IMG/VR virus record: IMGVR_UViG_3300044535_001837
Span: 1 to 56,497 of that record
Reading direction: 5' to 3' (one strand)
Origin: a virus
Lineage: Duplodnaviria > Caudoviricetes
DNA: 56,497 nt
The position numbers and the translations under genes were made by a program. Shown here piece by piece: positions 3,511 to 28,272 of the stretch (position 1 is the first letter of the stretch; every line of letters begins with the position of its first letter). The notes under the pieces were generated by a model. The model had not been told where the DNA came from, did no database searches, and was given only the letters and a program-made list of their open reading frames with translations.

Positions 3511-6500
3511 ATGGATGAGAAATACATACTAGACCTGTATAATACTGTAGTAAAGAATGATCCATCTTTCAAGGTGGATGTATCCTTAGATTTATTCAGA
3601 CAAAAAATGTCTGATCAGAATTATGCCAAAAAAATATATGGGTGGGTATCAGGTGTTGATCAAGAGTTTAAGAACAACAATCCTGAAGATCAGTTCATGA
3701 AACTCCTGTCAGGAGAAATGGCAGGGACTCCTATTGATAGAGAGATAAAAAAAAAAGACAATACGGCATCATCTTTGGAAGATGGTTTATTGGCATACAG
3801 GAGATTTAATCCTACCACAGGAAAGATTGAAGGAGAGGGACCTGAGACTGAGTCTGTCCAAGTAGTAGAACAGGAAGGCCCTGCACAGCAGCCTAGAGAT
3901 TTAAATACAGGTGAGTACATTTTAAACTCAATGAATGCTGTTAGTAGGGGATTCTATAAGAACTTAATTGGTAATCCTATTAAAGGACTTGGTACCTTAT
4001 TGGAGAAAGGTAATCCTTCTAGACTTTTTGGAGACTCCGGAAAGAGTCCTATCAGTGATTCTCTTATTGAATTCGGGACATGGTTTAATAATGCCATTGA
4101 TGAAGTAGCTGAACAAGATGAAGAGTTCAAAGGAACATTAGTTGATCAGGGTTCACAGGCAATGGGTCAAGTACTTTCAACTGTTCTTACTGCAGGGCTT
4201 GGTGGTATGGCATCAAAAACTTTAGGAGGAGCTTCAGCAATACCTACACTTCAAACAGCTGCAACAACAGGTGCAGCTGCAGAGGTAGCAAAGGATGTTG
4301 CAACAGGAATCGTAAGTCTTCCGGGTATAAGCTCTGCATTAACAGTAGGTCAATCAGAGTTTGAAAGAGCTAAAGAAGCAGGTGCTACTGATGATCAGGC
4401 GTTTGAAGCATTCTATAAAAATGCAGGAACAGGATCTGTACTTGAAAGGGTTCCTGTAATGCAGTTCTTAAAAAGATTTAATAAGGCTACTCAAGGAGGT
4501 GTAGTAGATTATTTAGTGGCTAAAGGTAAGGCAGGTGTAACCGGTGGATTGGAAGAATTTAGTACTGAAATATTGCAACAAATATATGCCAACAAAACAG
4601 CTCAAGAAATTTACAATGTTAATCAAGATCTATTTGAAGGAGTAGCTGAATCAGGAGGTGTAGGATTTGGTGTTGGCTTCCTACTAAATGCTTTGGGTGC
4701 CAATGCTAGAATACTTAGAAAGAATGGTAAAGTAGCAGAAGCCAATACAATAGAACAACAGATATCTGAATTTGAGAAAAGAGCTGAAAAGGGGGGTAAA
4801 TCAACATATAAGGTAAATGGATTTAGTATAACAGATCCGAAGATTATCAATGACATGATTGATAAGCTTAGTGGAGTTGATCTATCAAATTCAAATATTG
4901 AAATCATTAATGATCCTGAGCTTAATACCAAACTACAAAATAAGATAGTTGACGATTCACTTAAAGATCAAATAAGAAAAGCCAATCCTGATCTAAATAA
5001 TGCAAGCGTTAATGCTATTGCAGGACTACAGAAAGAATTAAATAATTTAGAAGGTAATACAACTCAGGTCGCTAAGGATAGAGCAGCTGAGATTAGAACT
5101 AAGATAAAAGATATTCAGGCAAATCAACTGACAGAAGAACCAACAACATATAGAGTTGATGGTAAGGATGTGTCTGTAGATTATATTGATGAGCTGATAA
5201 AAACTAAAAGCAAGGAAGAACTTCTTGCTATGAATATTGAAATAAATAATGATCAAACAGGATTAGCAGAAAGACTACAGGCTGCAGGAGGAACTAAAGC
5301 TGCTGCTCCTACAGCAGAGACTCCAACCTCTCTTACAGAGGAGTTGGCACAATCTATTGCTGAAAAAAGAAAAGCAAGAATTACTGAGTTAGAAGATTTA
5401 CTTGATTCAGATTTTGCAATAACTCAAGAAACAGGGAAAGGAAACCTATCATTTGATGAGAGACGAGAAATAAAACAAGAGTTACAAAAATTAAACGCAG
5501 AACAAGATGCCATTCAAGAGCAAGCAGCAGGTCAAGTACCTGTACAGTCAGGAACCGGAGTTAGCCAAGAAGTGGCGGAAGGAACACCCCAAGCAGAACC
5601 TCAAGGCGTTACCCAAGAAGGTCTCCAAGAAGAAATAGATAAGATTAATCAGGAAAGAGAAAAAGAGCTTAAGTCTTTTAGCGGCCCATTAACTCAACCT
5701 TATTTTATATTTGAAACAGATGGACCAACAGTAGAAGAATATATTAATAAAAAGTATGACGATAAGATAAATGAGTTAACATCTAAGTCTTCAACTCAAG
5801 AAGTCAAACCTAGAATATTAACAGAGAGCTTAGGTAGTGGTGTTGTTAAATATTCAAGCGTTGATGAGAACGGAAATGAGATTGGATCTGCAACTGTATC
5901 TGTTGTCGATGACAAAGTTATTGTCGATGATATATTCGTACAAGAAGAATCAAAGAGAAAGGGAGTAGCTACAAGTATCTTTGATAAGATAACAGAAGAC
6001 TACAAAGGAAAGTCTTTCGATTATGTCGATGCCAATAATAGAGAATTTAGCAAGCCTTATCAGTTAGAGTTTGGTACTGTAGTATCAGATGAAGGATCTG
6101 CTTTTGTAGAATCTGTAAAAGAAAAAACAGAAAAGTTTAATGCAGATCAAAAAGGAGCAAGAGATGCTACAGAATTCAGCTTTGATAATCTATCAAGACA
6201 GCCACTAAAAGTATTAGAAGACAAGCTTGAAGAAATAAATAATAGTTTCCCTGCTGATCCTGATGTTGACAAAGCACAAACAGATGCACTCGCTGAACAA
6301 AGGAAAGCTGTTAAGGATGAGATTGAAAAAGCGAAGGCACAAATAAATACTGCGATTGAATCAGCTAAATCAAATCTTGGTAACAGACTACAAGGAGATG
6401 ACTTAGATAATGCTATAGATTTGATCGATGAGCTTTCTGATAACAAGGCTGAGATAGATGAGGATGGTATGGTAACTGTTTACCATAGAACTACTCCTGA

Positions 6501-9500
6501 TAAGAAAGCTGAGATTGAGAAGACAGGCAATATGAAGGGCCTTGAGGATGGGGTATTCTTTTCAACTAAAGAGACAGGTCAAGCAGAAGGTTACGGTGAT
6601 GCAATTGTAAAACTAAAGATCCCTGTAGAACAATTAATTCTTGATGATACATTTGGAGATGAGGCCCATGTAAGAATACCTACAAAGAAAGCCGGTGAGG
6701 TAGTAAAAGTAAAAGACTACATACAAGCTGAACAAAAAGGAAAGTTAGAAGAAGTAGGTCAAGGATTAAATGAGACTGATCTTCCCGGATATGATAAGAT
6801 GATGAATGCAATTAATGATATCATCTATCGAGCATCCAATAGAGCTGATTCAACTCCTGAAACAGTAATGGATGGGGTTATCAAATATCTTCAGACTAGA
6901 TCTCAGGCTTATATAAATGCTACTGACGTTCAACGTGAGCAGATCATTCGTGATGTTCGTAAGCGATTTGGTAAACGTGAGAAGAAGGCACCGACAGCAG
7001 ATAAGATCGTAGGTAAGACAAAGAAGAAGGAAGTTACTGCCGATGAAATGGCAGCTCTTAAAGATCAGATAAAGCTTGAAGAAAAAGCAGCACGTGAGGC
7101 TAAAAAAGATATTAACACTAAGCGTAAGATGATTGCGGATGCTATCAATAAGATGGCTGAAGGAGGAAAAGTTACTGCTAAGAAAGCTGAGGCAATGCTT
7201 AAGAGATTAAGCAAGCTCAATGTTGATAGTCCTGCTATGGTTAATAAGTTTATTGACTACGTATTCAATGTATTTCAAGATGCTGATTATGCATCTAAAT
7301 TATCTACGGCAAAAAGTTTAAGATCTAAGATCAATAAAATATCTAAGAACAAAGACAAGCTTGCTAACCTAAGAGATCTAGGATCTAAGTTTATAAATAT
7401 AGATCCGACTATGCTTAATGCTGATGAATTAGCTGAGTATAATAGCATAGCTGATAAGGTATTAAAATCAATACAGGGATCTACCTTAAAAGGTAAAGGC
7501 AAGTTGGCTGAAATTGTTGTTGAGTCAGATGTAAATAAATACATCGATGATGTTGTCAAGAAACAAAATCAGCAGAGGCTTGATGATGCAGTCAGTGAGA
7601 TGAGTGAATTGATTGGAGTAGAATTAACTGAAGCAGAATACATTCAACTTATGGAAAGTCAGAATGTGGAGGAAGCTTTAGATAAAAAATACGACAAGGC
7701 AAAAATAAGATCATCAATTCAAAAAGCTTTTGATCTTTATTCAACCATGATCAAAGAATCCATTAAGACAGGAAAGGATTTGTTCAATGGCGATGCTGTT
7801 AATTACTCAGCGATTCAGAAAAGAATCTTGAATCAGTTTATTAATATGGATCTCAATTACCTTAATGATAAGGTACTATTAGAATCTGTAGATGCGTTAA
7901 TGAACTTCATGAACAACGGATCTATTGCAAAGATGGATTCCATATTATCCAAGTATAATGGTGAGAAGAATATGGTTGAAGCTTTGAATGATGGAGTCAA
8001 GTCTAGACCTCTACAAAAGTTTTGGTCTAAAGGATTAGGTAAAGTTTTAGTAGAACAAACTGCAAACATAAACATTGTATTCGAAAGAATATTTGGTGGG
8101 TTTACAAAAGGTCAGAAGATGGAGGAGGCTATGGGTGTAGCTGACTTGGTTAATGGCAAAGCAAAAGGTCAGAAAGAATCAGAGAATATTGTAAATGAAT
8201 ATGTAAGTAAGTTCTTCGATAAGAAACCAAATAACAAATTATTTAACGAAGCTTCAAATAATATTGAAAGGGGCATGGGTGCATTCATGTCTCGAAATGT
8301 TAATGGTACTGATGCTGAAATTAAGACAGAGTTTGAAAGAAGAAAGAAATTAATATCTGATTCAATAACTGAACTAGAGAAAGGCAATGAACAGGAGGTA
8401 GAGAAGGCCAAGATTTATCAGGAGATATATGATAAGATCCTTGCTGATTCTAATACAATCGAGGATGTTCAATCCAAAATGGATAAGACTAACCTAGAGG
8501 CTGTTGAATTTTGGCAGGATAAATGGCGTGATAAATACGAGCAACTATATGATGTGGCTCTTAGTGTCTACAATAAAGTGCTAGATAAAGATACCGGATA
8601 CACTACCGATAGATTCTCTAAGCTAAGTTCAGACAAGGATAAAAAGAGTGATCTTCTAAATGAAGACATGGCATTTATTGTTAATAGTGGAAACTCAAGT
8701 ATCTATAAGAAAGAAACAGGGGTATTGATGACAGCTACTAAACCTAAAAAGTTGCCATCAAATGAGAAGGGTAAAACAAATAGATATGTTGATTTATCTT
8801 TTGATAGCAATAATGCTAACTCAATGTATGATGCTCTTGTTGATATCAATACTGCCGCAGCGATTAGACAGATAGATGCAGCGATGGAATCAGATGCATT
8901 CAGCAAGATCATGGATAATCAGAGAGATAAGACTCTTATTCAAAATAGAATACGTTTGTATGTTGCCAACATTAGAAACAAGAATCCATTCTCTAATGAT
9001 GAGTTATCTAGATTTGGTAAAAGACTAAACAGAGTAGCAGCAATAAGTGTTGGCCAATCATTGGGTGGTGTGACTCAACCAATAAAGCAAACTATACCTA
9101 TCGCTATAAATACTTTAATAAATGCAGGGTCATTGGATGTTAAATCAATATTTGATAAATCCAAGCAGTCATTTATTAATCGTTCAGGAAGAGCAATCGC
9201 TAACAGAGGTATTGAATCTCAGGCTCAGGTATCTACATTGAATAAAATGGTAGATGATATAGCCAAAAGCAAAGGAGAGAAAATGTTCAAAGCCATTGAG
9301 AAAGTTAATGATTGGTGGTTGAGAAATTTATTGGTGAAGTTTGACGTAGGTATTGCACGTGCTTCTTGGATGACATACTATGAACAGTCTCTTAAGAAGC
9401 AAGGTATTAATCCAAGTACTATTGATTGGAATACTCATGAAGTAAATGAGAAGGCGGCAAACTATGCACAGAGACAAGTCGATCGTCAGCAGAACGTATC

Positions 9501-10680
9501 TGATTCAGACATGGCCGGAGAGTTATTGTCAAGCAAGGATGCTAAGACACAGATCTTTGTGAAAATGTTGATGCCTTTCGCTTCATTTAGAATGAATCAA
9601 TCTGCAAGACTTGGATCTGATATGTCTGTTCTATTGAATTGGAAAGAATCTGATTCTCAGGATTTGAAGATTGCTGCTAGATCAGTTGCAGGATTTGCTG
9701 CTGAAATGGCTACGTTTAGAATATTATCTGCAGGTATTTCAATACTACTTTATGATGCTGTTAGAGCTATAGTTGGAGGGGATGAAGATGAGGAGAAAAG
9801 ACAGAAGAAGATTGATGCTATCATAAAAGGACAGTTGACTAGTACAGTATCTGATGTGTTATCTCCTTCACCATTGGTAGATCCATTAGTACAAGGAGGA
9901 ACAGCATTTACTTTAGATAATCTACAGAATGCACTTGATATAGAAGATGAAGATCGTGTTTCAATATATGGATCAAATCCAAAAGATCTTTTGCAATCCT
10001 ATGGTACTCTTGGTATGGGTGCTGATAGAGCACTACAACTAGTAGAGATGGGTCAGCTTATTGCAGGTCAGGGATTCAAAGATAATTTCAATAGAACTAA
10101 ATATGTATCTGAAAGATATAGAGATGCACTAGAACTTCTATTTGTTCCTGCAATTATGTCAAACATTGGACTAGCACCTGCTGAAGTAAACAGCATAGTT
10201 AGATCAACGATCTCTGAAGCAAAGAGAAACTCATCTACAGTTGAGGGCGGCAAGACAAAACAAGATGAAGCTATTGAGAAGTTTGATGAGATCAATAAAG
10301 AAGCTGATAAATCAAAACAAGAGCAAGAGGATAGAAAAGAATTGAAAGCTCTTGAAGAATTGAAAGCAAGTGAATATGATTCAGATGTTATAAATGCAGT
10401 CAATGATAGGATCAGAGCTATACGAAATCCTGATGATAAAGACTTAGAGGAGAAGAAGAAGAAGAAGAAGGAAGAGAAAGAAAAACTTCTAGGTGAGTAT
10501 GATAATATGACAGAGATGGAAAGATATGATCCTGAATTATTTGAGGAAAGATTTGGTGAGAACTCTGAGTATTACATGAAAAATAGAGGGGAAGTAGAAG
10601 CAGAAAAGAAACTTAACAAACTTCTTAAGCAGATGGAAGATGAAGAAAGAGGATACTCTAGTAGGAAAAAGAGAAGGTAA
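3511..10680 (+). CDS. Giant ejection/polyvalent protein with GNAT and ART-like inserts
   Basis: 2389 aa with Gly/Ala-rich hydrophobic helices, coiled coils, a GNAT motif A (IFVQEESKRKGVATSI) and ART-like motifs (VYHRT...GVFFST...AEGYG). Confidence 0.7.
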   Translation: MDEKYILDLYNTVVKNDPSFKVDVSLDLFRQKMSDQNYAKKIYGWVSGVDQEFKNNNPEDQFMKLLSGEMAGTPIDREIKKKDNTASSLEDGLLAYRRFNPTTGKIEGEGPETESVQVVEQEGPAQQPRDLNTGEYILNSMNAVSRGFYKNLIGNPIKGLGTLLEKGNPSRLFGDSGKSPISDSLIEFGTWFNNAIDEVAEQDEEFKGTLVDQGSQAMGQVLSTVLTAGLGGMASKTLGGASAIPTLQTAATTGAAAEVAKDVATGIVSLPGISSALTVGQSEFERAKEAGATDDQAFEAFYKNAGTGSVLERVPVMQFLKRFNKATQGGVVDYLVAKGKAGVTGGLEEFSTEILQQIYANKTAQEIYNVNQDLFEGVAESGGVGFGVGFLLNALGANARILRKNGKVAEANTIEQQISEFEKRAEKGGKSTYKVNGFSITDPKIINDMIDKLSGVDLSNSNIEIINDPELNTKLQNKIVDDSLKDQIRKANPDLNNASVNAIAGLQKELNNLEGNTTQVAKDRAAEIRTKIKDIQANQLTEEPTTYRVDGKDVSVDYIDELIKTKSKEELLAMNIEINNDQTGLAERLQAAGGTKAAAPTAETPTSLTEELAQSIAEKRKARITELEDLLDSDFAITQETGKGNLSFDERREIKQELQKLNAEQDAIQEQAAGQVPVQSGTGVSQEVAEGTPQAEPQGVTQEGLQEEIDKINQEREKELKSFSGPLTQPYFIFETDGPTVEEYINKKYDDKINELTSKSSTQEVKPRILTESLGSGVVKYSSVDENGNEIGSATVSVVDDKVIVDDIFVQEESKRKGVATSIFDKITEDYKGKSFDYVDANNREFSKPYQLEFGTVVSDEGSAFVESVKEKTEKFNADQKGARDATEFSFDNLSRQPLKVLEDKLEEINNSFPADPDVDKAQTDALAEQRKAVKDEIEKAKAQINTAIESAKSNLGNRLQGDDLDNAIDLIDELSDNKAEIDEDGMVTVYHRTTPDKKAEIEKTGNMKGLEDGVFFSTKETGQAEGYGDAIVKLKIPVEQLILDDTFGDEAHVRIPTKKAGEVVKVKDYIQAEQKGKLEEVGQGLNETDLPGYDKMMNAINDIIYRASNRADSTPETVMDGVIKYLQTRSQAYINATDVQREQIIRDVRKRFGKREKKAPTADKIVGKTKKKEVTADEMAALKDQIKLEEKAAREAKKDINTKRKMIADAINKMAEGGKVTAKKAEAMLKRLSKLNVDSPAMVNKFIDYVFNVFQDADYASKLSTAKSLRSKINKISKNKDKLANLRDLGSKFINIDPTMLNADELAEYNSIADKVLKSIQGSTLKGKGKLAEIVVESDVNKYIDDVVKKQNQQRLDDAVSEMSELIGVELTEAEYIQLMESQNVEEALDKKYDKAKIRSSIQKAFDLYSTMIKESIKTGKDLFNGDAVNYSAIQKRILNQFINMDLNYLNDKVLLESVDALMNFMNNGSIAKMDSILSKYNGEKNMVEALNDGVKSRPLQKFWSKGLGKVLVEQTANINIVFERIFGGFTKGQKMEEAMGVADLVNGKAKGQKESENIVNEYVSKFFDKKPNNKLFNEASNNIERGMGAFMSRNVNGTDAEIKTEFERRKKLISDSITELEKGNEQEVEKAKIYQEIYDKILADSNTIEDVQSKMDKTNLEAVEFWQDKWRDKYEQLYDVALSVYNKVLDKDTGYTTDRFSKLSSDKDKKSDLLNEDMAFIVNSGNSSIYKKETGVLMTATKPKKLPSNEKGKTNRYVDLSFDSNNANSMYDALVDINTAAAIRQIDAAMESDAFSKIMDNQRDKTLIQNRIRLYVANIRNKNPFSNDELSRFGKRLNRVAAISVGQSLGGVTQPIKQTIPIAINTLINAGSLDVKSIFDKSKQSFINRSGRAIANRGIESQAQVSTLNKMVDDIAKSKGEKMFKAIEKVNDWWLRNLLVKFDVGIARASWMTYYEQSLKKQGINPSTIDWNTHEVNEKAANYAQRQVDRQQNVSDSDMAGELLSSKDAKTQIFVKMLMPFASFRMNQSARLGSDMSVLLNWKESDSQDLKIAARSVAGFAAEMATFRILSAGISILLYDAVRAIVGGDEDEEKRQKKIDAIIKGQLTSTVSDVLSPSPLVDPLVQGGTAFTLDNLQNALDIEDEDRVSIYGSNPKDLLQSYGTLGMGADRALQLVEMGQLIAGQGFKDNFNRTKYVSERYRDALELLFVPAIMSNIGLAPAEVNSIVRSTISEAKRNSSTVEGGKTKQDEAIEKFDEINKEADKSKQEQEDRKELKALEELKASEYDSDVINAVNDRIRAIRNPDDKDLEEKKKKKKEEKEKLLGEYDNMTEMERYDPELFEERFGENSEYYMKNRGEVEAEKKLNKLLKQMEDEERGYSSRKKRR
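5507..5638 (+). CDS. Nested +1-frame small basic protein (MPFKS...-type, 43 aa)
   Basis: ATG-to-TAG frame reads MPFKSKQQVKYLYSQEPELAKKWRKEHPKQNLKALPKKVSKKK with an A-rich leader. From memory it resembles a small stand-alone protein seen in aquatic phages. Confidence 0.65.
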   Translation: MPFKSKQQVKYLYSQEPELAKKWRKEHPKQNLKALPKKVSKKK

Positions 10681-12287: not shown

Positions 12288-12605
12288 TCAGGCATTTCTA
12301 TATTCGTCTAGTTCTTCTTTTAATCTTTCTAAAAACGATTCTTCCCCATCATCACCACTCAACAACCAATCAATTCGTTGGGCATATATGGCTGCTAGTC
12401 TAAGATAGTGTACTCCTTTCTTGAACTCTGCAATAACCTCTTCAGGATATTCGTAATGATGAGTAGGTTTTTCACCATCAAAAAGAAAATAATCTCTTCT
12501 TTCTTCTTCTGTCAATAACCTACCGCTATTATCTATCTCTCTTTGAATATCATCCGCTATAGGATCTATTCTTCTTTGGTCGTAATTAAAGTGTCCTCCG
12601 CTCAT
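12288..12605 (-). CDS. Hypothetical phage protein (MSGGHFNY...IDWLLSGDDGEE type)
   Basis: Recurrent small phage protein motifs; coupled to the upstream stop. Confidence 0.7.
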   Translation of the reverse strand: MSGGHFNYDQRRIDPIADDIQREIDNSGRLLTEEERRDYFLFDGEKPTHHYEYPEEVIAEFKKGVHYLRLAAIYAQRIDWLLSGDDGEESFLERLKEELDEYRNA

Positions 12606-12847
12606 AGTTGTTTGTATGTTTCGTTGTAGTATTGTTCCCCTGAATTTCCATTATCGGGATATCCATCTGAATAGCCCTGTTCATATCCATCTGTAATCTG
12701 CTCCTTCTCTTCCTCAATCAACTCGTACAGTAATCTCTCAATCTGCTGAAGATGATGAGCAGTATGCTTGCCCATTAGAGTTTCATCCATCGATTCCATT
12801 CTACTTCTCACCATCGTAATGGCTTTCTGTATTACTGTCTGTTTCAT
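12602..12847 (-). CDS. MKQT-type hypothetical protein, paralog B
   Basis: MKQTV...EKEQITDGYEQG...EQYYNETY, similar to the adjacent ORF. Confidence 0.65.
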   Translation of the reverse strand: MKQTVIQKAITMVRSRMESMDETLMGKHTAHHLQQIERLLYELIEEEKEQITDGYEQGYSDGYPDNGNSGEQYYNETYKQL

Positions 12848-13037
12848 ATTTTTCTTTATAGATTTGTTCAAAGGTTACATCACTTGGGAAAGGAATAAAG
12901 AACCCATCCTGATAAAACTCCTTCATCTGCTCCTTCTCCATCTCTTTGGCTTTCTCTAAAATGCTATGCCAAATAAACTTATCCTTTGGCGAAGTCCATA
13001 GTTCCGTAAAATACCATTCTACTGCTGTCTGTTTCAT
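12801..13037 (-). CDS. MKQTAVEW-type hypothetical protein, paralog A
   Basis: MKQTAVEW...AKEMEKEQ...FEQIYKEKY. Confidence 0.65.
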   Translation of the reverse strand: MKQTAVEWYFTELWTSPKDKFIWHSILEKAKEMEKEQMKEFYQDGFFIPFPSDVTFEQIYKEKYETDSNTESHYDGEK

Positions 13038-13186
13038 AGTTTATCGATTAGATTGTTTAAGTTCTCATCTGATAGGAAGTTCTCCTTGTCAGTACTCCAA
13101 TAGTCTAGGTACCTATCCCTGTGTACAGCGTACCACTTCTGTGTGTATTCATTCCAATGAAATACGTAGTTCCAAATCTTTTCCAT
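13034..13186 (-). CDS. Small Trp/Tyr-rich hypothetical protein (50 aa, not in the ORF track)
   Basis: MEKIWNYVFHWNEYTQKWYAVHRDRYLDYW...; its stop overlaps the next ATG (ATGA). Confidence 0.55.
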   Translation of the reverse strand: MEKIWNYVFHWNEYTQKWYAVHRDRYLDYWSTDKENFLSDENLNNLIDKL

Positions 13187-13204: not shown

Positions 13205-13350
13205 TAGTCAGGACAGGATTCGAACCTGCATGGTAGGCTTATCTAGAAAGCCGTTTGAAGTACCTATTACAAAGGTATTACGGAGCTTTACACCGACTTT
13301 AACGGACACCAACCTTTGCTTTTAGCGTTTACCAATTCCGCCACCTGACT
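13205..13350 (-). ncRNA. tRNA-like RNA with a ~95-nt multi-hairpin insert
   Basis: Acceptor stem AGTCAGG/CCTGACT plus discriminator A, D-arm TGGCGGAATTGGTAAACGC, T-arm GCAGG-TTCGAAT-CCTGT; no anticodon arm at the normal position. Confidence 0.75.
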
Positions 13351-13395
13351 AAGTTTGCTACTGTTGGTAGGCACTAGCGACCGAAACATATAACC

Positions 13396-13563
13396 CTATC
13401 TATCTATTTTAATTGTATATTTTTTCCCATATAGTTTTCTTGCATGCTCATTAGCTTCTGAATAAGTTCCTACAAACTCAGAACTATGGTCCCAATCATC
13501 TATATCTTTATTCCACTTGATATAATGATCACCATAAATAAGATATCTACTTCTAGTCTTCAT
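13396..13563 (-). CDS. Small hypothetical protein (55 aa, not in the ORF track)
   Basis: MKTRSRYLIYGDHYIKWNKD...; ATG overlaps the helicase stop. Confidence 0.55.
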   Translation of the reverse strand: MKTRSRYLIYGDHYIKWNKDIDDWDHSSEFVGTYSEANEHARKLYGKKYTIKIDR

Positions 13564-14933
13564 ATCAGATTTTTTTTAAAATGATTAACTGTGTAGTCCT
13601 TCTTCTTTATCACTGTCTTGTATACGTCATGCTCAATTCCTCCCTTACTGAAGACCCAATACACATGATTGAATGATCGCTCTTTAGTTGTCATCCGATC
13701 CCTGCTCTGCCAATAACTAGTAGCACTGAAGTCAATGTTGTAATATACCAAGTACTTGGCTTGCTTAAGACTGATCCCCTCCCTGCCACTAACTATCTGC
13801 AATGCAATGTTCTTATCCGTACTATCAAATATACTAAGCTCAGTAGTAAGCTGATCACCAAACACATCCTTCAGGGCAGACAGCTCTTCCTTAAATTTAT
13901 AGAAGATCCCTATCTTACTTCCTTGAAATTTTTGTTTAATGAACTCAGCCTTGGTTGTGTCAAGCACCATGCTGTTACCACTCTCAAACTTAATAGTCCC
14001 ACTGCATAGTTGATGTACCTTCATCATCAACTTCACCGGTGTATCTGCAAGGATCACTTCATTCTTACCTTCAATTACTAAGTCCTTCTCAAGTTTCTTG
14101 ATTAACTTCATCGTAGATTCCTTCATCTCCACCTCTAGGATCTCCTCAGTAACTGATGATACGAACCCTGCTTCCTTCTGTGAGAAACTAATCATGTATG
14201 GTTTCATCTCATCAAGGATGCTATCCAACCCATTGCTATAGTCATTGATGAATAGACCATTGATGTTCTTCTGCTTCACCTTGACATGTGTATCAGCAAA
14301 CTTGTAGAAGTTAACGAACCGATTGAATGGGTTACTAGGTATGCCATACACCTGATGGTACATCTGCGAATAACTCTCCGGTGTTGGTGTACCTGACATG
14401 AGTATCACCTTTGGTCTATACTTAGAGATAGCGTGTCGGATCATTACAGCCCGATTGCTAGGCTTTGGGAACGCACCTATACTATGAGCCTCATCAATGA
14501 CTATTAGGTCAAATTTGAAGCTGTCTACCACGTTGTGGAGACTCTCATAATTTACAACCTTTATCTGATAACTAGGCTTGAGTAGATCGTAATCATTCTG
14601 TATACTGCTGATGGCTTTCTTCTTGGTTACAAACAGCACAGACTTAGCACCAACATTATCTGCGATCCCTAGGCTAGTCAGGGTCTTCCCTGTACGTACC
14701 TCCATCGCTAGGTACACGAAGCCATACATGTTTATGGCCTGTGCACCCTCAGATATAATCTCCTTTTGATATGGTCTAAACTGCATGCTGTATGTTCCGT
14801 AATGGGAAAGACTATTCTTTATTTTGTTTACTATTTCTGAATCAATATGCTTACTACTTGATACTACATCGTAAAGTATTCCGCAGTACCTAAGCATTTG
14901 CTCATCAGAGTATCCGGGTATTCTCTCAATCAT
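13560..14933 (-). CDS. SF2 (SNF2-like) DNA helicase
   Basis: Q motif FRPYQ, Walker A EVRTGKT, DEAH, SGTP and QSRDR motif VI. Confidence 0.85.
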   Translation of the reverse strand: MIERIPGYSDEQMLRYCGILYDVVSSSKHIDSEIVNKIKNSLSHYGTYSMQFRPYQKEIISEGAQAINMYGFVYLAMEVRTGKTLTSLGIADNVGAKSVLFVTKKKAISSIQNDYDLLKPSYQIKVVNYESLHNVVDSFKFDLIVIDEAHSIGAFPKPSNRAVMIRHAISKYRPKVILMSGTPTPESYSQMYHQVYGIPSNPFNRFVNFYKFADTHVKVKQKNINGLFINDYSNGLDSILDEMKPYMISFSQKEAGFVSSVTEEILEVEMKESTMKLIKKLEKDLVIEGKNEVILADTPVKLMMKVHQLCSGTIKFESGNSMVLDTTKAEFIKQKFQGSKIGIFYKFKEELSALKDVFGDQLTTELSIFDSTDKNIALQIVSGREGISLKQAKYLVYYNIDFSATSYWQSRDRMTTKERSFNHVYWVFSKGGIEHDVYKTVIKKKDYTVNHFKKNLI

Positions 14934-26667: not shown

Positions 26668-28272
26668 ATGGAACCTAAAGATTTATTCTTCGCCCAAGAG
26701 GGCAGACTCAAGTTGATCTCAGGGATCAAGAAGATTGCAGGAGCTGTAAAGAGTACTTTGGGCCCTAATGGGAACACGGTACTAATTGAGAGTCCTAATC
26801 ACACGCATGGTATCACAGTAACAAAGGATGGGGTAACTGTCGCTAAGGCGGTTGACTTGATTGATCCTGTTGAGAACCTTGCGGTACGAATTATGAAGGA
26901 GGCTGCGGATAAGACAGCTACATCTGCCGGAGATGGTACTACCACGGCGATTGTATTGACCGAGGGGTTAGTTCTTGGATGGGTAGATCATTTTGTAAGT
27001 TCGGGTACTAATGTGAATTCAACAGAGGTATTGCGTAACATTCATGAGTTGAGTGAGAAGGTGATTGGTAATCTTAGGAAGAAAGCCAAGAAGGTAAGTT
27101 CTTCAAAGTTGTTGGACGTTGCTACTATCTCTGCGAATAATGATCGTGAGGTAGGTAGGATTATTTCTGAGGTGTACAAGGAAGTTGGGGACAATGGCAT
27201 TGTAACTGTTGAGCGAAGCCAAACTTCAGATACGTATGCTGATGTAACTAAGGGTTTGAAGATTGACAGAGGATACTCTAGTCCATTGTTCATTAATGAT
27301 CAGGGTAGGGATGAGTGTGTGTTTGAGGATGTGTATGTATTAGTGTCTGACATTGGCATTGATAATATCCTTCAGATCCATGATAAGGTATTGCAGCCGA
27401 TTACTCAGAGTGGTAAGAAGCTATTGGTAATATCACCTTGTTCTACAAATGTGGTGAACACGTTTGCTGCTAACGTAATGAAGAACAACTTTAAGTTCTG
27501 CGTTATACAGCCACCAAGCTTTGGTTACAAGCAGCATGAGTTGATGCAGGACATTGCATTAAGTATTGGTGCGACATACTTCAGTGAGAAGACAGGTGAT
27601 GATCTTTCTAGAATGACTATGAGTGACTTGGGTCATGCATCCAAGATCGTAGTTGGAAAGGATAAGACCATTATTATTAAGAGCGATCTTAAGATTGACC
27701 AACAATTAATTGATGAAAGGGTTCAGCAACTATGGGATGCTCATAGTATTGCTAAGAAGAAGGCTGATCGTGATCATATCTTGGAGCGTATTGCTTCTTT
27801 GACAGGTGGTATTGGAGTGATCTACGTAGGAGGCAACACTGACCTAGAGCAGAAGGAGTTGTATGACCGGGTTGATGATGCGGTGTGTGCGGTACGATCT
27901 GCATTGGAGGAAGGAATCCTTCCGGGTGCCGGCAAGGCTTTAGTAGATGAGAGTGCTAATTTGCTTGCTGAGCTTGGTAATTTGAATAGAAGTGATGAGT
28001 ATGATGCAGCACTTAAGATCTTGATCAATGCGATGATGGCACCGTTTCAGCAGATCCTTGCTAACGCAGGATTGAAACCAAGTGAGATCTACAATGGTGA
28101 GATTCCTGTAGGTCATGGTTATAACTTGAAGACAGGTGAGATGGGTGACTTGATTAAGATGGGGGTAATTGACCCACTAAAGGTTACACGTAGTGCATTA
28201 CAGAACGCTGTGAGTGTAGCAACAACTATTCTATCAACTAACGCTATCATCACGATGGCTAGACCTTACTAA
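26668..28272 (+). CDS. groEL: Chaperonin GroEL (phage-encoded)
   Basis: TLGPNG, TKDGVTVAK, AGDGTTTA, RVDDAVCAVRSALEEGILPG and GVIDPLKVTRSALQNA motifs; no GGM tail. Confidence 0.95.
   Translation: MEPKDLFFAQEGRLKLISGIKKIAGAVKSTLGPNGNTVLIESPNHTHGITVTKDGVTVAKAVDLIDPVENLAVRIMKEAADKTATSAGDGTTTAIVLTEGLVLGWVDHFVSSGTNVNSTEVLRNIHELSEKVIGNLRKKAKKVSSSKLLDVATISANNDREVGRIISEVYKEVGDNGIVTVERSQTSDTYADVTKGLKIDRGYSSPLFINDQGRDECVFEDVYVLVSDIGIDNILQIHDKVLQPITQSGKKLLVISPCSTNVVNTFAANVMKNNFKFCVIQPPSFGYKQHELMQDIALSIGATYFSEKTGDDLSRMTMSDLGHASKIVVGKDKTIIIKSDLKIDQQLIDERVQQLWDAHSIAKKKADRDHILERIASLTGGIGVIYVGGNTDLEQKELYDRVDDAVCAVRSALEEGILPGAGKALVDESANLLAELGNLNRSDEYDAALKILINAMMAPFQQILANAGLKPSEIYNGEIPVGHGYNLKTGEMGDLIKMGVIDPLKVTRSALQNAVSVATTILSTNAIITMARPY

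What the first reader, a model, noticed from the sequence alone, without database searches (positions are those of the whole stretch)
13205..13350. 146-nt tRNA mimic carrying two anticodon-like hairpins
Seen (minus strand): a perfect 7-bp acceptor stem, a Leu-like D-arm, a canonical T-arm and discriminator A, but about 95 nt replace the anticodon and variable arms. The insert has two 5-bp-stem/7-nt-loop hairpins: TACCT-TTGTAAT-AGGTA (U33, GUA = Tyr, A37) and GGCTT-TCTAGAT-AAGCC (central UAG = Leu, no U33). Enclosing helices TGGTG/TACCA and CCGTT/AACGG are also possible, the latter competing with the second hairpin. It is too short for a group I intron or a tmRNA. Inference: a possibly new RNA class matured by RNase P/Z; it might act as a decoy for tRNA-cleaving defences, a synthetase sponge or an mRNA processing element.
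Basis: partly seen in the sequence, partly recalled or inferred. Interest (0 to 1): 0.8.

Follow-up and report, generated by a model that had tools for sequence, protein, structure and literature searches.

The report
Phage tRNA frame carrying swappable inserts
This is a real tRNA-shaped RNA gene in a lake-water phage whose anticodon arm is replaced by a structured insert, and it belongs to a large phage family that keeps one tRNA "frame" but carries many different inserts, whose function is still unknown.

Summary
The 146-nt element (13205-13350, minus strand) is real. It has a perfect 7-bp acceptor stem, a Leu-type D-arm, a canonical T-arm, discriminator A and about 95 nt in place of the anticodon and variable arms. 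It is not a one-off. The same 24-nt 3' half occurs in at least 120 IMG/VR stretches (row-capped). These gave 149 distinct elements of about 54-182 nt with unrelated interiors, at 4-11 copies in each of five phage records. Only 18 MAG contigs among 185,579 species genomes hold it. Positions of the tRNA tertiary core that the search did not fix are conserved.

Closely related phages carry different inserts, or none, at the same locus. It forms a hairpin P-a (CAAAGGT/ACCTTTG) and a second domain made of helix GGTA/TACC, an 8-nt bulge CUUCAAAC and the hairpin GGCUU/AAGCC. Fifteen homologues support this fold by covariation. The proposed "Tyr" hairpin has no comparative support, and no anticodon is conserved. 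The window shows no stop-codon recoding.

Best reading: a non-decoding, tRNA-derived stable RNA in which the frame recruits tRNA-maturation enzymes and the insert is the working part. Its partner is unknown. Decoy and mRNA-punctuation roles remain open.

The parts
13205..13350 (-). Whole tRNA-frame RNA gene (146 nt; RNA position p = 13351 minus the window coordinate)
   Evidence: Direct reading; Rfam tRNA full-length alignment at 24.3 bits; homologues
13344..13350 (-). Acceptor stem, 5' strand AGTCAGG (p1-7)
   Evidence: Pairs with 13206-13212. Position 4:69 covaries (C-G in 11 sequences, G-C in 3, U-A in 1 of 15)
13325..13341 (-). Leu-type D-arm GCGGAATTGGTAAACGC (p10-26) with A14, A15, G18, G19
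   Evidence: The 18-nt string is exact in at least 107 viral stretches, canonical tRNA-Leu included. Family-wide conservation of U8, A14, A15 and G18
13270..13318 (-). Insert domain P-a: stem CAAAGGT/ACCTTTG (p33-39 with p75-81) enclosing 35 nt, including the small hairpin CCG-UUAAAGU-CGG (13293-13305)
   Evidence: MFE fold. 3 of its 7 pairs show compensatory change across 15 homologues. A shorter P-a (CAAAAG/CTTTTG, TAAAAG/CTTTTA) replaces it in other copies
13232..13264 (-). Insert domain 2: helix P-b GGTA/TACC (p87-90 with p116-119), 8-nt bulge CUUCAAAC (13253-13260), hairpin P-c GGCUU-UCUAGAU-AAGCC (13236-13252)
   Evidence: Recurs on frames with three different acceptor stems and in at least 7 flank contexts. 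P-c covaries at 2 pairs. The bulge is unchanged in all but one copy found by a pattern that did not include it
13213..13229 (-). T-arm GCAGG-UUCGAAU-CCUGU (p122-138), preceded by U at the nt-48 position (13230)
   Evidence: Direct reading. 4 of 5 T-stem pairs covary. U at the '48' position in 126 of 149 family members
13205..13212 (-). Acceptor 3' strand CCTGACT plus discriminator A (13205). The next base, 13204, is C
   Evidence: Direct reading. C follows the discriminator in 145 of 149 family members and in 232 of 253 canonical tRNAs of the same loci
13351..13382 (-). Conserved 32-nt upstream box GGTCGCTAGTGCCTACCAACAGTAGCAAACTT (likely 5' leader)
   Evidence: Kept in relatives that lack the tRNA-like element (L004, L008-L010)
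13034..13186 (-). Downstream 50-aa ORF (MEKIWNYVFHW...). Its ATG lies 18 nt after the element
   Evidence: ORF list. Conserved in relatives with and without the element
13396..14933 (-). Upstream 55-aa ORF (13396-13563) and DNA helicase gene (13560-14933)
   Evidence: ORF list; PHROG 62 DNA helicase, E=7e-60

Best explanation
The element is a functional, non-decoding RNA gene derived from a tRNA-Leu.

Shown: it keeps the whole tRNA frame. This comprises the acceptor stem, D-arm, T-arm, discriminator A and the nucleotides of the tertiary core (U8, A14, A15, G18/G19, U48). Its anticodon and variable arms are replaced by a two-domain structured insert. It belongs to a large family of phage genes that share this frame almost letter for letter but carry many unrelated inserts. 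Each of five phage records examined holds several copies. Inserts are exchanged, gained or lost at the same locus between close relatives.

Inferred mechanism: the transcript is recognised by the host's tRNA-maturation enzymes (RNase P at the 5' end, 3' trimming, CCA addition). This would release a stable L-shaped RNA. LeuRS, which does not read the anticodon, may charge it. The frame therefore acts as a universal handle and scaffold. The insert is the specific working part and binds a partner not yet identified. In this element the working part would be helix P-b with its near-invariant 8-nt bulge CUUCAAAC and hairpin P-c. The RNA cannot decode.
For: Frame and significance.

Family size: the exact 24-nt 3' half occurs in at least 120 IMG/VR stretches (row-capped). 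This gave 170 instances, of which 19 have no AGTCAGG within 400 nt, and 141-149 distinct elements of about 54-182 nt. Five phage records hold 4, 5, 8, 8 and 11 copies, all on one strand. Only 18 stretches, all MAG contigs, were found among 185,579 species genomes.

Selection on the tRNA fold at positions the search did not fix: U8 141, A14 126, A15 130, G18 123 and U48 126, each of 149.

Same gene layout as real tRNAs of these phages: C after the discriminator in 145 of 149 elements against 232 of 253 canonical tRNAs. Many copies lie inside tRNA arrays. 29 of 49 members in 19 loci pass Rfam's tRNA gathering score.

Distinct from the resident tRNA-Leu genes, whose acceptor stems differ widely.

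Insert under selection: on 15 homologues 97.8% of cells pair and 11 pairs show compensatory change. The covariation score is 0.120 against 0.049 +/- 0.006 in shuffles (0 of 500 reach it), and slid controls stay at or below 0.028. Domain 2 has 0 differences in 24 unconstrained columns between the window and L364 or L401, while their frames differ at 8-9 of 53 (p about 0.05). The module recurs on three acceptor variants and in at least 7 flank contexts, in mosaic combinations. Across the family, interiors fold better than their shuffles (132 interiors, mean z -0.61, p=2e-11).

Cassette exchange at orthologous loci.

Weak hint of expression: metatranscriptome contigs of two studies carry the frame ends with other interiors, and one is a variant-A-like contig.
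Against: No maturation, CCA addition, aminoacylation or partner was observed.

The RNA-library contigs are assemblies 170-792 nt long. They may be DNA carry-over or parts of longer transcripts, and they show no discrete ends.

The invariance of the 3' half is partly an effect of searching with that exact string.

The excess structure of the interiors is modest: 27% of 132 have z above 0.

The domain-2 conservation test is borderline (p about 0.05) and could reflect recent transfer, not constraint.

The window's own copy scores below Rfam's tRNA threshold.

The element is dispensable in this lineage. Only 4 of 80 helicase-linked loci hold the standard 3' half with 4 or fewer changes, and three more hold a variant with an odd T-loop.

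No linked protein gene points to a function. The best gene cluster lies near elements in only 26 of 153 loci and has no Pfam or PHROG match.
Confidence: 0.45

Rival explanations
1. Top-half decoy or sponge. Only the frame matters. Many copies of an acceptor/T-arm/D-arm mimic soak up a host factor that recognises the tRNA body. Candidates are a defence nuclease or toxin aimed at the tRNA tail, acceptor stem or type II tRNAs, or LeuRS or EF-Tu. The inserts would be tolerated filler that keeps the repeats from recombining.
For: The frame and tertiary core are the conserved part across 149 elements, while the interiors are unrelated. There are 4-11 copies per record. The element is accessory and sporadic in this lineage, as counter-defence genes often are. 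[quoted passage not shown]
Against: Minimal forms are rare. About 10 of 149 elements are 72 nt or shorter, and most are longer than a tRNA. Insert helices covary, and domain 2 is kept letter for letter on diverged frames. Filler would not be expected to behave so. No target defence system was identified.
Confidence: 0.2
2. Cis-acting mRNA punctuation, a phage 't-element'. The tRNA-like fold is a cleavage signal for RNase P and the 3' tRNA-processing enzymes. It cuts polycistronic transcripts and sets the 5' end of the downstream mRNA. The excised RNA would be a by-product.
For: In the window it lies between a conserved 32-nt leader box and an ORF whose ATG is 18 nt downstream, on the same strand as its neighbours. 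An ORF of 40 aa or more starts within 40 nt downstream in 56 of 149 elements, against 16% of random positions. No sigma-70-like promoter or intrinsic terminator lies beside it on its strand. Plant mitochondrial t-elements work this way (passages read in PMC1920247).
Against: Many copies lie in tRNA arrays with no ORF next to them. At one locus type a TAnnTTTG motif sits 4 nt upstream, which suggests these copies are primary transcripts of their own (the motif's meaning as a Bacteroidota -7 box is recalled, not tested). Random positions are a weak control in gene-dense phage DNA. Punctuation does not need long, conserved, covarying inserts.
Confidence: 0.15
3. DNA-level or selfish element. The near-identical frame ends serve as homology arms or recombination sites that spread and shuffle cassettes among co-infecting phages. 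The RNA itself would have little function.
For: Presence, absence and replacement at the same site in close relatives. Mosaic combinations of modules. Near-identical frames in very different phage contigs of about 4-270 kb. Genuine tRNA-Leu genes of the same phages differ widely.
Against: Compensatory changes in the acceptor, T, P-a and P-c stems and the conserved tertiary-core nucleotides show selection at the RNA level. No target-site duplication and no linked recombinase or endonuclease gene was seen.
Confidence: 0.08
4. A decaying tRNA-Leu pseudogene.
For: Default ARAGORN and Rfam at gathering threshold do not call it. No anticodon arm is present. It is absent from most relatives.
Against: The stems are perfect and covary. 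The tertiary core is conserved across 149 elements. The insert module is conserved in at least 7 contexts. The frame is unlike the resident tRNA-Leu genes.
Confidence: 0.04
5. A true decoding tRNA, for example a UCA suppressor read from the CUUCAAA bulge or a tRNA-Leu, that is made after removal of the insert by an unknown splicing route.
For: In L292 and L436 helix P-b sits exactly where the anticodon stem belongs, and CUUCAAA has the form of an anticodon loop with U33 and A37. A few family members look like near-canonical tRNA-Leu(UAA).
Against: The window shows no sign of TGA or TAG recoding. ORFs of 100 aa or more cover 85% of it under code 11, TGA ends 20 of 61 ORFs, and no neighbouring ORFs merge when stops are read through. 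The insert is far too short for a group I intron, and Rfam finds none. In the window an extra domain (P-a) precedes P-b and only 2 nt follow it, which leaves no room for a variable loop. Bacteria are not known to splice protein-dependent tRNA introns (established knowledge, recalled).
Confidence: 0.03

Closest known systems
Canonical bacterial or phage tRNA-Leu (class II tRNA; Rfam RF00005)
   Same: 7-bp acceptor stem, U8, Leu-type D-arm with G18G19, T-arm GGTTCGAATCC, discriminator A, C after the discriminator as in the phages' real tRNAs, and location in or near tRNA arrays.
   Different: No conserved 5-bp/7-nt anticodon arm. About 95 nt of other structure takes its place. Total length is 146 nt. 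The score is below Rfam's gathering score. The acceptor sequence is almost fixed across phages, whereas real tRNA-Leu genes vary.
t-elements of plant mitochondria (tRNA-like processing signals; PMC1920247, passages read)
   Same: Non-canonical cloverleaf with a conserved T-arm, embedded between genes. Expected substrate of RNase P and RNase Z. The excised element can be stable.
   Different: The phage elements keep a full D-arm and tertiary core, carry long conserved inserts, occur in multi-copy clusters and tRNA arrays, and are swapped between relatives. Cleavage was not tested here.
tmRNA (tRNA-like domain split by a large internal region)
   Same: The two halves of a tRNA top half enclose a long structured interior, followed by discriminator A.
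   Different: No G3:U70 (here U3-A70). No tag reading frame with a resume codon. The interior is 17-130 nt, not about 260 nt. A full D-arm is present. ARAGORN finds no tmRNA at default settings, and Rfam finds none.
Phage T4 small stable RNAs RNAC and RNAD
   Same: Phage-encoded stable small RNAs of unknown function ('RNAs of yet unknown functions', passage read in PMC9697503).
   Different: No sequence comparison was made here. The T4 RNAs are two fixed genes, not a family with one frame and many inserts.
Engineered 'tRNA scaffold' for recombinant RNA expression (seen in a search listing only, PMC3753655; the design itself is recalled)
   Same: The cargo RNA replaces the anticodon arm of a tRNA, so that the cell processes and stabilises the chimera.
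   Different: That is a laboratory design. Here the architecture occurs naturally, with many cargoes.
Bacterial Y-RNA-like YrlA and other tRNA mimics (skipping-rope, DUF2693-FD, salivarius-1; abstracts or outline seen)
   Same: Non-coding RNAs that imitate the tRNA L-shape.
   Different: In YrlA the tRNA-like module is closed at the acceptor end and opens at the anticodon side (recalled). None of these Rfam families matches the element at E up to 10.

Membership tests
Decoding tRNA (RF00005) | 7-bp acceptor stem, D-arm, T-arm with GTTCRANYC, discriminator | tested here: met
   Direct reading; full-length model alignment
Decoding tRNA (RF00005) | 5-bp anticodon stem with a 7-nt loop (U33, purine 37) at positions 27-43, conserved among homologues | tested here: not met
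   ARAGORN at default finds no gene. The candidate loops vary or vanish in homologues. ARAGORN's intron-mode stem is broken in 5 of 8 homologues
Decoding tRNA (RF00005) | Score at or above Rfam's gathering score (29 bits) | tested here: not met
   24.3 bits for the window's copy. Its L016 homologue reaches 37.5 bits, but only by skipping the anticodon arm
tRNA interrupted by a group I intron (as in tRNA-Leu UAA) | Intron of roughly 200 nt or more with the P1-P9 core, inserted in the anticodon loop | tested here: not met
   The insert is about 95 nt. No Intron_gpI match at E up to 10. No flanking anticodon stem
tmRNA | G3:U70 alanine identity, tag ORF with resume codon and stop, pseudoknots | tested here: not met
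   U3-A70. ARAGORN at default finds 0 tmRNA. Only spurious calls appear at relaxed thresholds. No Rfam tmRNA match
Suppressor tRNA of a recoded phage | The genome reads a stop codon as sense | tested here: not met
   Code 11 ORFs cover 85% of the window. TGA ends 20 of 61 ORFs and TAG ends 7. ORFs do not fuse under read-through
t-element-like processing signal | tRNA-like fold with a conserved T-arm inside a transcript, between genes on the same strand | tested here: met
t-element-like processing signal | Cleavage by RNase P and RNase Z at its ends in vivo or in vitro | not testable with these tools
   Only assembled contigs of RNA libraries were available. They show no ends
Phage 'constant tRNA frame, variable insert' family (defined here) | Acceptor AGUNAGG/CCUNACU plus A73, T-arm (A/G)CAGG-UUCRAAU-CCUGU, tertiary-core nucleotides, and a non-anticodon insert between the D-arm and T-arm | tested here: met
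Leucine-accepting RNA (LeuRS substrate) | A73 and the D-/T-loop tertiary architecture of tRNA-Leu. The anticodon is not required (E. coli rules, recalled) | tested here: inconclusive
   The sequence features are present. Charging was not tested, and the host's LeuRS rules are unknown. No phage LeuRS in 0 of 5 records

The most novel reading that the evidence does not exclude
Freshwater phages, probably of Bacteroidota, may run a natural modular 'tRNA-scaffold' system. One nearly invariant tRNA-Leu-derived frame would act as a universal handle that makes the host process, stabilise and perhaps leucylate any RNA placed inside it. Many different structured cargo modules, aptamer-like and with their own conserved motifs such as the CUUCAAAC bulge, would be carried on it. 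Each genome would hold several of them (4-11 in the five records examined), shuffled between phages by recombination at the frame. The result would be an exchangeable RNA toolkit for host takeover or counter-defence.
Probability: 0.3. Interest if true: 0.85.

Novelty: new variant of a known kind. Interest (0 to 1): 0.7.

Why it matters
tRNA mimics are known as single cases (tmRNA, Y RNAs, viral 3' tRNA-like structures, t-elements). This family differs in scale. The same tRNA frame occurs in at least 120 viral stretches with 149 different inserts. Each phage record examined holds several copies, and inserts are exchanged at orthologous sites.

If the inserts are working modules, this would be a large, unexplored class of phage non-coding RNAs. 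It would also be a natural precedent for the engineered tRNA scaffold. If only the frame matters, it points to widespread RNA decoys against factors that target the tRNA body.

There is also a practical point for annotation. In 19 loci examined, 29 of 49 such elements pass Rfam's tRNA threshold, so they are likely to be counted as 'tRNAs' in phage genomes although they have no anticodon arm.

Tried and rejected
- GenBank phage collection (blastn, distant mode): no match for the element or for two other long Leu-frame elements. No cultured phage or depositor annotation was available.
- nhmmer with the whole 146 nt against 80 helicase-linked loci: only L006 and L016 matched.
- The 14-nt pattern GGTACTTCAAACGG gave mostly chance hits. 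124 matches were examined, and about 17 lay in a tRNA-like context.
- Antisense or sense matches of the insert elsewhere in the window: none of 12 nt or more. 10-mers were at chance level, 18 against 15.6 +/- 7.3. The complement of the bulge is not enriched.
- Linked protein genes: 2,934 ORFs around elements in 153 loci were clustered. The top cluster (26 loci) is a small protein family without a Pfam or PHROG match. The other clusters are ordinary phage genes.
- LeuRS-type synthetase in 0 of 5 phage records and a CCA-adding-type enzyme in 1 of 5: uninformative.
- Stop-codon recoding: rejected.
- Sigma-70 promoter and terminator scan: nothing on the element's strand.
- RNA-library contigs (4 runs, 4 studies): they cover frame ends and the downstream ORF region but give no ends, strand or level. 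The parts without cover say nothing.
- Literature, 6 full-text searches: no paper describing this family turned up. A catalogue of 8,495 candidate structured RNAs from IMG/VR exists (PMC10690425, passages read).
Full report
**Context.** The window is an IMG/VR virus record of 56.5 kb, estimated 54% complete. It belongs to a tailed phage with terminase, portal, tail-fibre, helicase, primase and GroEL-like genes. DNA runs that hold the stretch are labelled lake-water and freshwater metagenomes. The element lies on the minus strand. Upstream are the helicase gene and a 55-aa ORF. Downstream is a 50-aa ORF whose ATG follows 18 nt after the element.

**Checking the observation.** Read 13350->13205, the sequence has these parts in order:
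- acceptor AGTCAGG
- UG
- D-arm GCGGAATTGGTAAACGC
- about 95 nt of insert
- T-arm GCAGG-TTCGAAT-CCTGT
- CCTGACT, which pairs perfectly with the 5' end
- discriminator A

The 18-nt D-arm string is found exactly in at least 107 viral stretches, including canonical tRNA-Leu genes. Default ARAGORN finds no tRNA or tmRNA in the whole window. Rfam at gathering thresholds finds nothing. Given only the element, Rfam's tRNA model aligns end to end at 24.3 bits (E=0.003), below the gathering score of 29. The almost identical copy in L016 scores 37.5 bits by skipping the anticodon arm. The fold energy is -42.3 kcal/mol with z=-2.6. The tRNA-like frame is therefore real and not a chance resemblance.

**Relatives at the same locus.** A helicase-based search gave 80 related loci. 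Downstream of the helicase the close relatives (79-90% helicase identity) differ sharply:

| Loci | What lies there |
|---|---|
| window, L006, L016 | the 146-148-nt form |
| L002, L003 | a 70-nt form: same acceptor, T-arm and a related D-arm, interior reduced to a 4-bp hairpin |
| L012, L014, L015 | same acceptor stem, another interior of about 55 nt, an odd T-loop |
| L016 | also a second element 207 nt further on, with a third interior (CATACAAC...GTTGTATG) |
| L004, L008-L010 | only a 32-nt upstream box |
| L007, L011, L013 | nothing |
| L017, L018 | no element within the 420 nt shown |
| L005 | ends at the contig edge |

Over all 80 loci only 4 hold the standard 3' half with 4 or fewer changes. 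The element is accessory here, and its interior is replaced wholesale between near-identical genomes.

**A large family.** Up to six copies lie in one 5-kb locus. Pairing each hit with the nearest upstream acceptor strand gave 170 instances. Of these, 19 had no AGTCAGG within 400 nt, and 141 were distinct. Allowing [AG]GT[CT]AGG gave 149 distinct elements. Lengths run from 54 to about 182 nt. Most have the Leu-type D-arm. The interiors share no common 7-mer beyond small sub-families. Some also carry a hairpin inserted in the D-loop.

Five phage records examined with up to 2 mismatches hold 5, 4, 8, 8 and 11 copies, all on one strand. Two of these records are 99-100% complete genomes. In 185,579 species genomes the string occurs in only 18 stretches. 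All are MAG contigs, many labelled Bacteroidota (Chitinophagia, Sediminibacterium, Flavobacterium, Saprospirales). The frame is therefore carried by phages and is not a copy of a host tRNA in that collection.

A second locus type shows the same cassette behaviour. Identical flanks enclose elements of 90, 93, 97, 110, 133 and 160 nt.

**Is the frame selected as a tRNA fold?** At positions that the search did not fix, the tRNA core is kept in the 149 elements:

| Position | Conserved in (of 149) |
|---|---|
| U8 | 141 |
| A14 | 126 |
| A15 | 130 |
| G18 | 123 |
| U before the T-stem (nt 48, partner of A15) | 126 |

The base after the discriminator is C in 145 of 149 elements. The same holds for 232 of 253 canonical tRNAs predicted in the same loci. 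The gene layout thus matches that of the phages' true tRNAs. 66 of 134 loci contain ARAGORN tRNAs, and many elements lie inside arrays of them.

In 19 loci, 29 of 49 family elements pass Rfam's tRNA gathering score at 31-50 bits, and 20 do not. This count is my matching. The genuine tRNA-Leu genes of these phages have ordinary and widely differing acceptor stems. The family is therefore a separate lineage and not a decayed copy of the resident tRNA-Leu. A few members still look like near-canonical tRNA-Leu(UAA), for example L289.

**The window's insert.** A pattern taken from the insert, and a second pattern that avoids the bulge, recovered further copies of the same module. There are about 12 distinct sequences in at least 7 different flank contexts. 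They sit on frames with acceptor AGTCAGG, AGTGAGG or AGTTAGG and with T-stems ACAGG, ATAGG or GTGAG. They occur with or without the D-loop hairpin, and with a long, a short or no first hairpin. This is a mosaic pattern that suggests recombination between family members.

On 15 distinct sequences the following structure is supported (a 10-sequence version):
- acceptor, D-stem and T-stem
- P-a (CAAAGGT/ACCTTTG)
- the small hairpin CCG/CGG
- P-b (GGTA/TACC)
- P-c (GGCTT/AAGCC)
- the D-loop insert hairpin

97.8% of cells pair, and 11 pairs show changes on both sides. The covariation score is 0.120 against 0.049 +/- 0.006 in shuffles (0 of 500 reach it). Structures slid by 1-3 columns score 0.028 or less. 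P-b never varies, which is partly a consequence of the search patterns.

The 8-nt bulge CUUCAAAC between P-b and P-c is unchanged in all copies found by the pattern that did not include it, except L447 (CUUGAAAC). In L292, L436 and L361 the same P-b and bulge carry different, compensated P-c hairpins. Between the window and L364 or L401, domain 2 has 0 differences in 24 unconstrained columns, while the frames differ at 8-9 of 53 (p about 0.05).

Its strands belong to P-a and P-b. TGGTG/TACCA, CCGTT/AACGG and ARAGORN's AAAGC/GCTTT are not kept outside the closest copies. The loop 'GUA' is GAA in L016 and L126. No anticodon is conserved.

**What it is not.**
- The insert is too short for a group I intron, and no such match exists.
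- There is no tmRNA signature.
- The window shows no stop-codon recoding. ORFs of 100 aa or more cover 85% under code 11, TGA ends 20 of 61 ORFs, and read-through does not fuse genes. A UCA suppressor read from the bulge is therefore unlikely.
- The insert has no significant sense or antisense match elsewhere in the window.
- No protein gene is consistently linked to the elements.

**Expression.** Four metatranscriptome runs held small shares of the stretch. In two of them (X17, X20) contigs match only the two frame ends, with other interiors of 45, about 120 and 144 nt between them, at depths up to 39. One 329-nt contig matches the window's element over 127 nt. These are assembled contigs from RNA libraries. 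They may include DNA carry-over and show no ends. This is a weak hint that family members are transcribed, and no more.

**How it most likely works.** Two things are shown. The tRNA frame is conserved as an RNA fold, and the insert is conserved and structured within its sub-family. The rest is inferred. Such a frame is the substrate that RNase P, the 3' tRNA-maturation enzymes and the CCA-adding enzyme recognise. LeuRS does not need the anticodon (established knowledge for E. coli, recalled). The product should therefore be a stable L-shaped RNA that cannot decode.

I favour the reading that the frame is a scaffold and handle and that the insert is the working part. Here that part would be P-b and P-c with the bulge, binding an unknown partner (confidence about 0.45).

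The main rivals are:
- A pure top-half decoy (0.2). [quoted passage not shown]
- A t-element-like cleavage signal for the flanking mRNAs (0.15; PMC1920247, passages read). 56 of 149 elements have an ORF start within 40 nt downstream, against 16% of random positions.
- A DNA-level selfish cassette, a pseudogene and a spliced decoding tRNA. These are less likely, for the reasons given under the rivals.

**Comparison and novelty.** The closest known things are tRNA-Leu itself, plant mitochondrial t-elements, tmRNA, the T4 RNAs RNAC and RNAD (function still unknown; PMC9697503, passage read) and the engineered tRNA scaffold. The element fails the defining tests for a decoding tRNA, tmRNA, an intron-bearing tRNA and a suppressor tRNA. 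Structurally it fits a t-element-like RNA.

Six full-text searches found no description of a constant-frame, variable-insert family. A catalogue of candidate structured RNAs from IMG/VR mentions tRNA-like motifs (PMC10690425). I rate the finding a new variant of a known kind (tRNA mimics) and of high interest because of the family's size and modularity. Its function is undetermined.

Noticed in passing
window 13351-13382 (-); L004, L008-L010 just downstream of the helicase stop: A 32-nt box (GGTCGCTAGTGCCTACCAACAGTAGCAAACTT) directly upstream of the element is kept in relatives that lack the element. In L002/L003 it is preceded by TATGTTTG, which fits the Bacteroidota -7 promoter consensus TAnnTTTG as I recall it. 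It may be a promoter-proximal leader of the downstream small-ORF operon.
   Followed up: partly
L016:4327-4533; L126 downstream of 12384; L006 downstream of 4565: Conserved non-coding stretches follow the element in some relatives. One is a spacer of about 207 nt beginning CGAGTAGTGAGAACCTCGGTCGCAGC between two elements in L016 (also in L126). Another begins CGACAGTTAGATACAAGTC (L006, L192). They may be further non-coding RNAs.
   Followed up: no
L014/L015 downstream of the element; L296; L126 upstream of its 108-nt element: A conserved hairpin of about 60 nt (…GGGACCCTACCTGCCTGCAATTAGGGTGTGAG…GCAGGTAG…) recurs next to family elements in several phages.
   Followed up: no
L082-L188: The same Leu-type D-arm string also heads other over-long tRNA-like elements with different acceptor stems. 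Examples are GAAGGAA (98 nt, 25 stretches), GGATAAG (115 nt, 20 stretches), AGATGAG (127 nt) and ACGGGAA (129 nt). Expansion of tRNA-Leu frames therefore seems wider than the AGUCAGG family.
   Followed up: partly
window 12801-13037 (-) and 12602-12871 (-); 26 of 153 element-bearing loci: A family of small proteins (MKQTAVEW…AKEMEKEQ…YYNETY, 60-110 aa) without a Pfam or PHROG match often lies just downstream of the elements, frequently in two or three tandem paralogues.
   Followed up: partly
L278, L286, L289, L295, L208, L236, L251, L259: At a second cassette-swapping locus a perfect TAnnTTTG motif ends 4 nt before the element's first base. In all, 13 of 165 elements have such a motif 3-11 nt upstream, against about 1 expected. 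Some copies may therefore be primary transcripts starting at A1.
   Followed up: partly
canonical tRNA genes in the 134 family-bearing loci: 232 of 253 ARAGORN tRNAs in these phage loci have C directly after the discriminator, followed by A/T-rich sequence. Only the first C of CCA is encoded.
   Followed up: no
window 3511-10680 (+); 26668-28272 (+): A 2,389-aa ORF has no PHROG match and only sub-threshold Pfam hits. The phage also encodes a GroEL-type chaperonin (PHROG 5725, E=1e-132).
   Followed up: no
L443:1802-1955 (-): One copy of the window's module has a disrupted 3' acceptor strand (an extra base). It may be a decaying copy or an assembly error.
   Followed up: no
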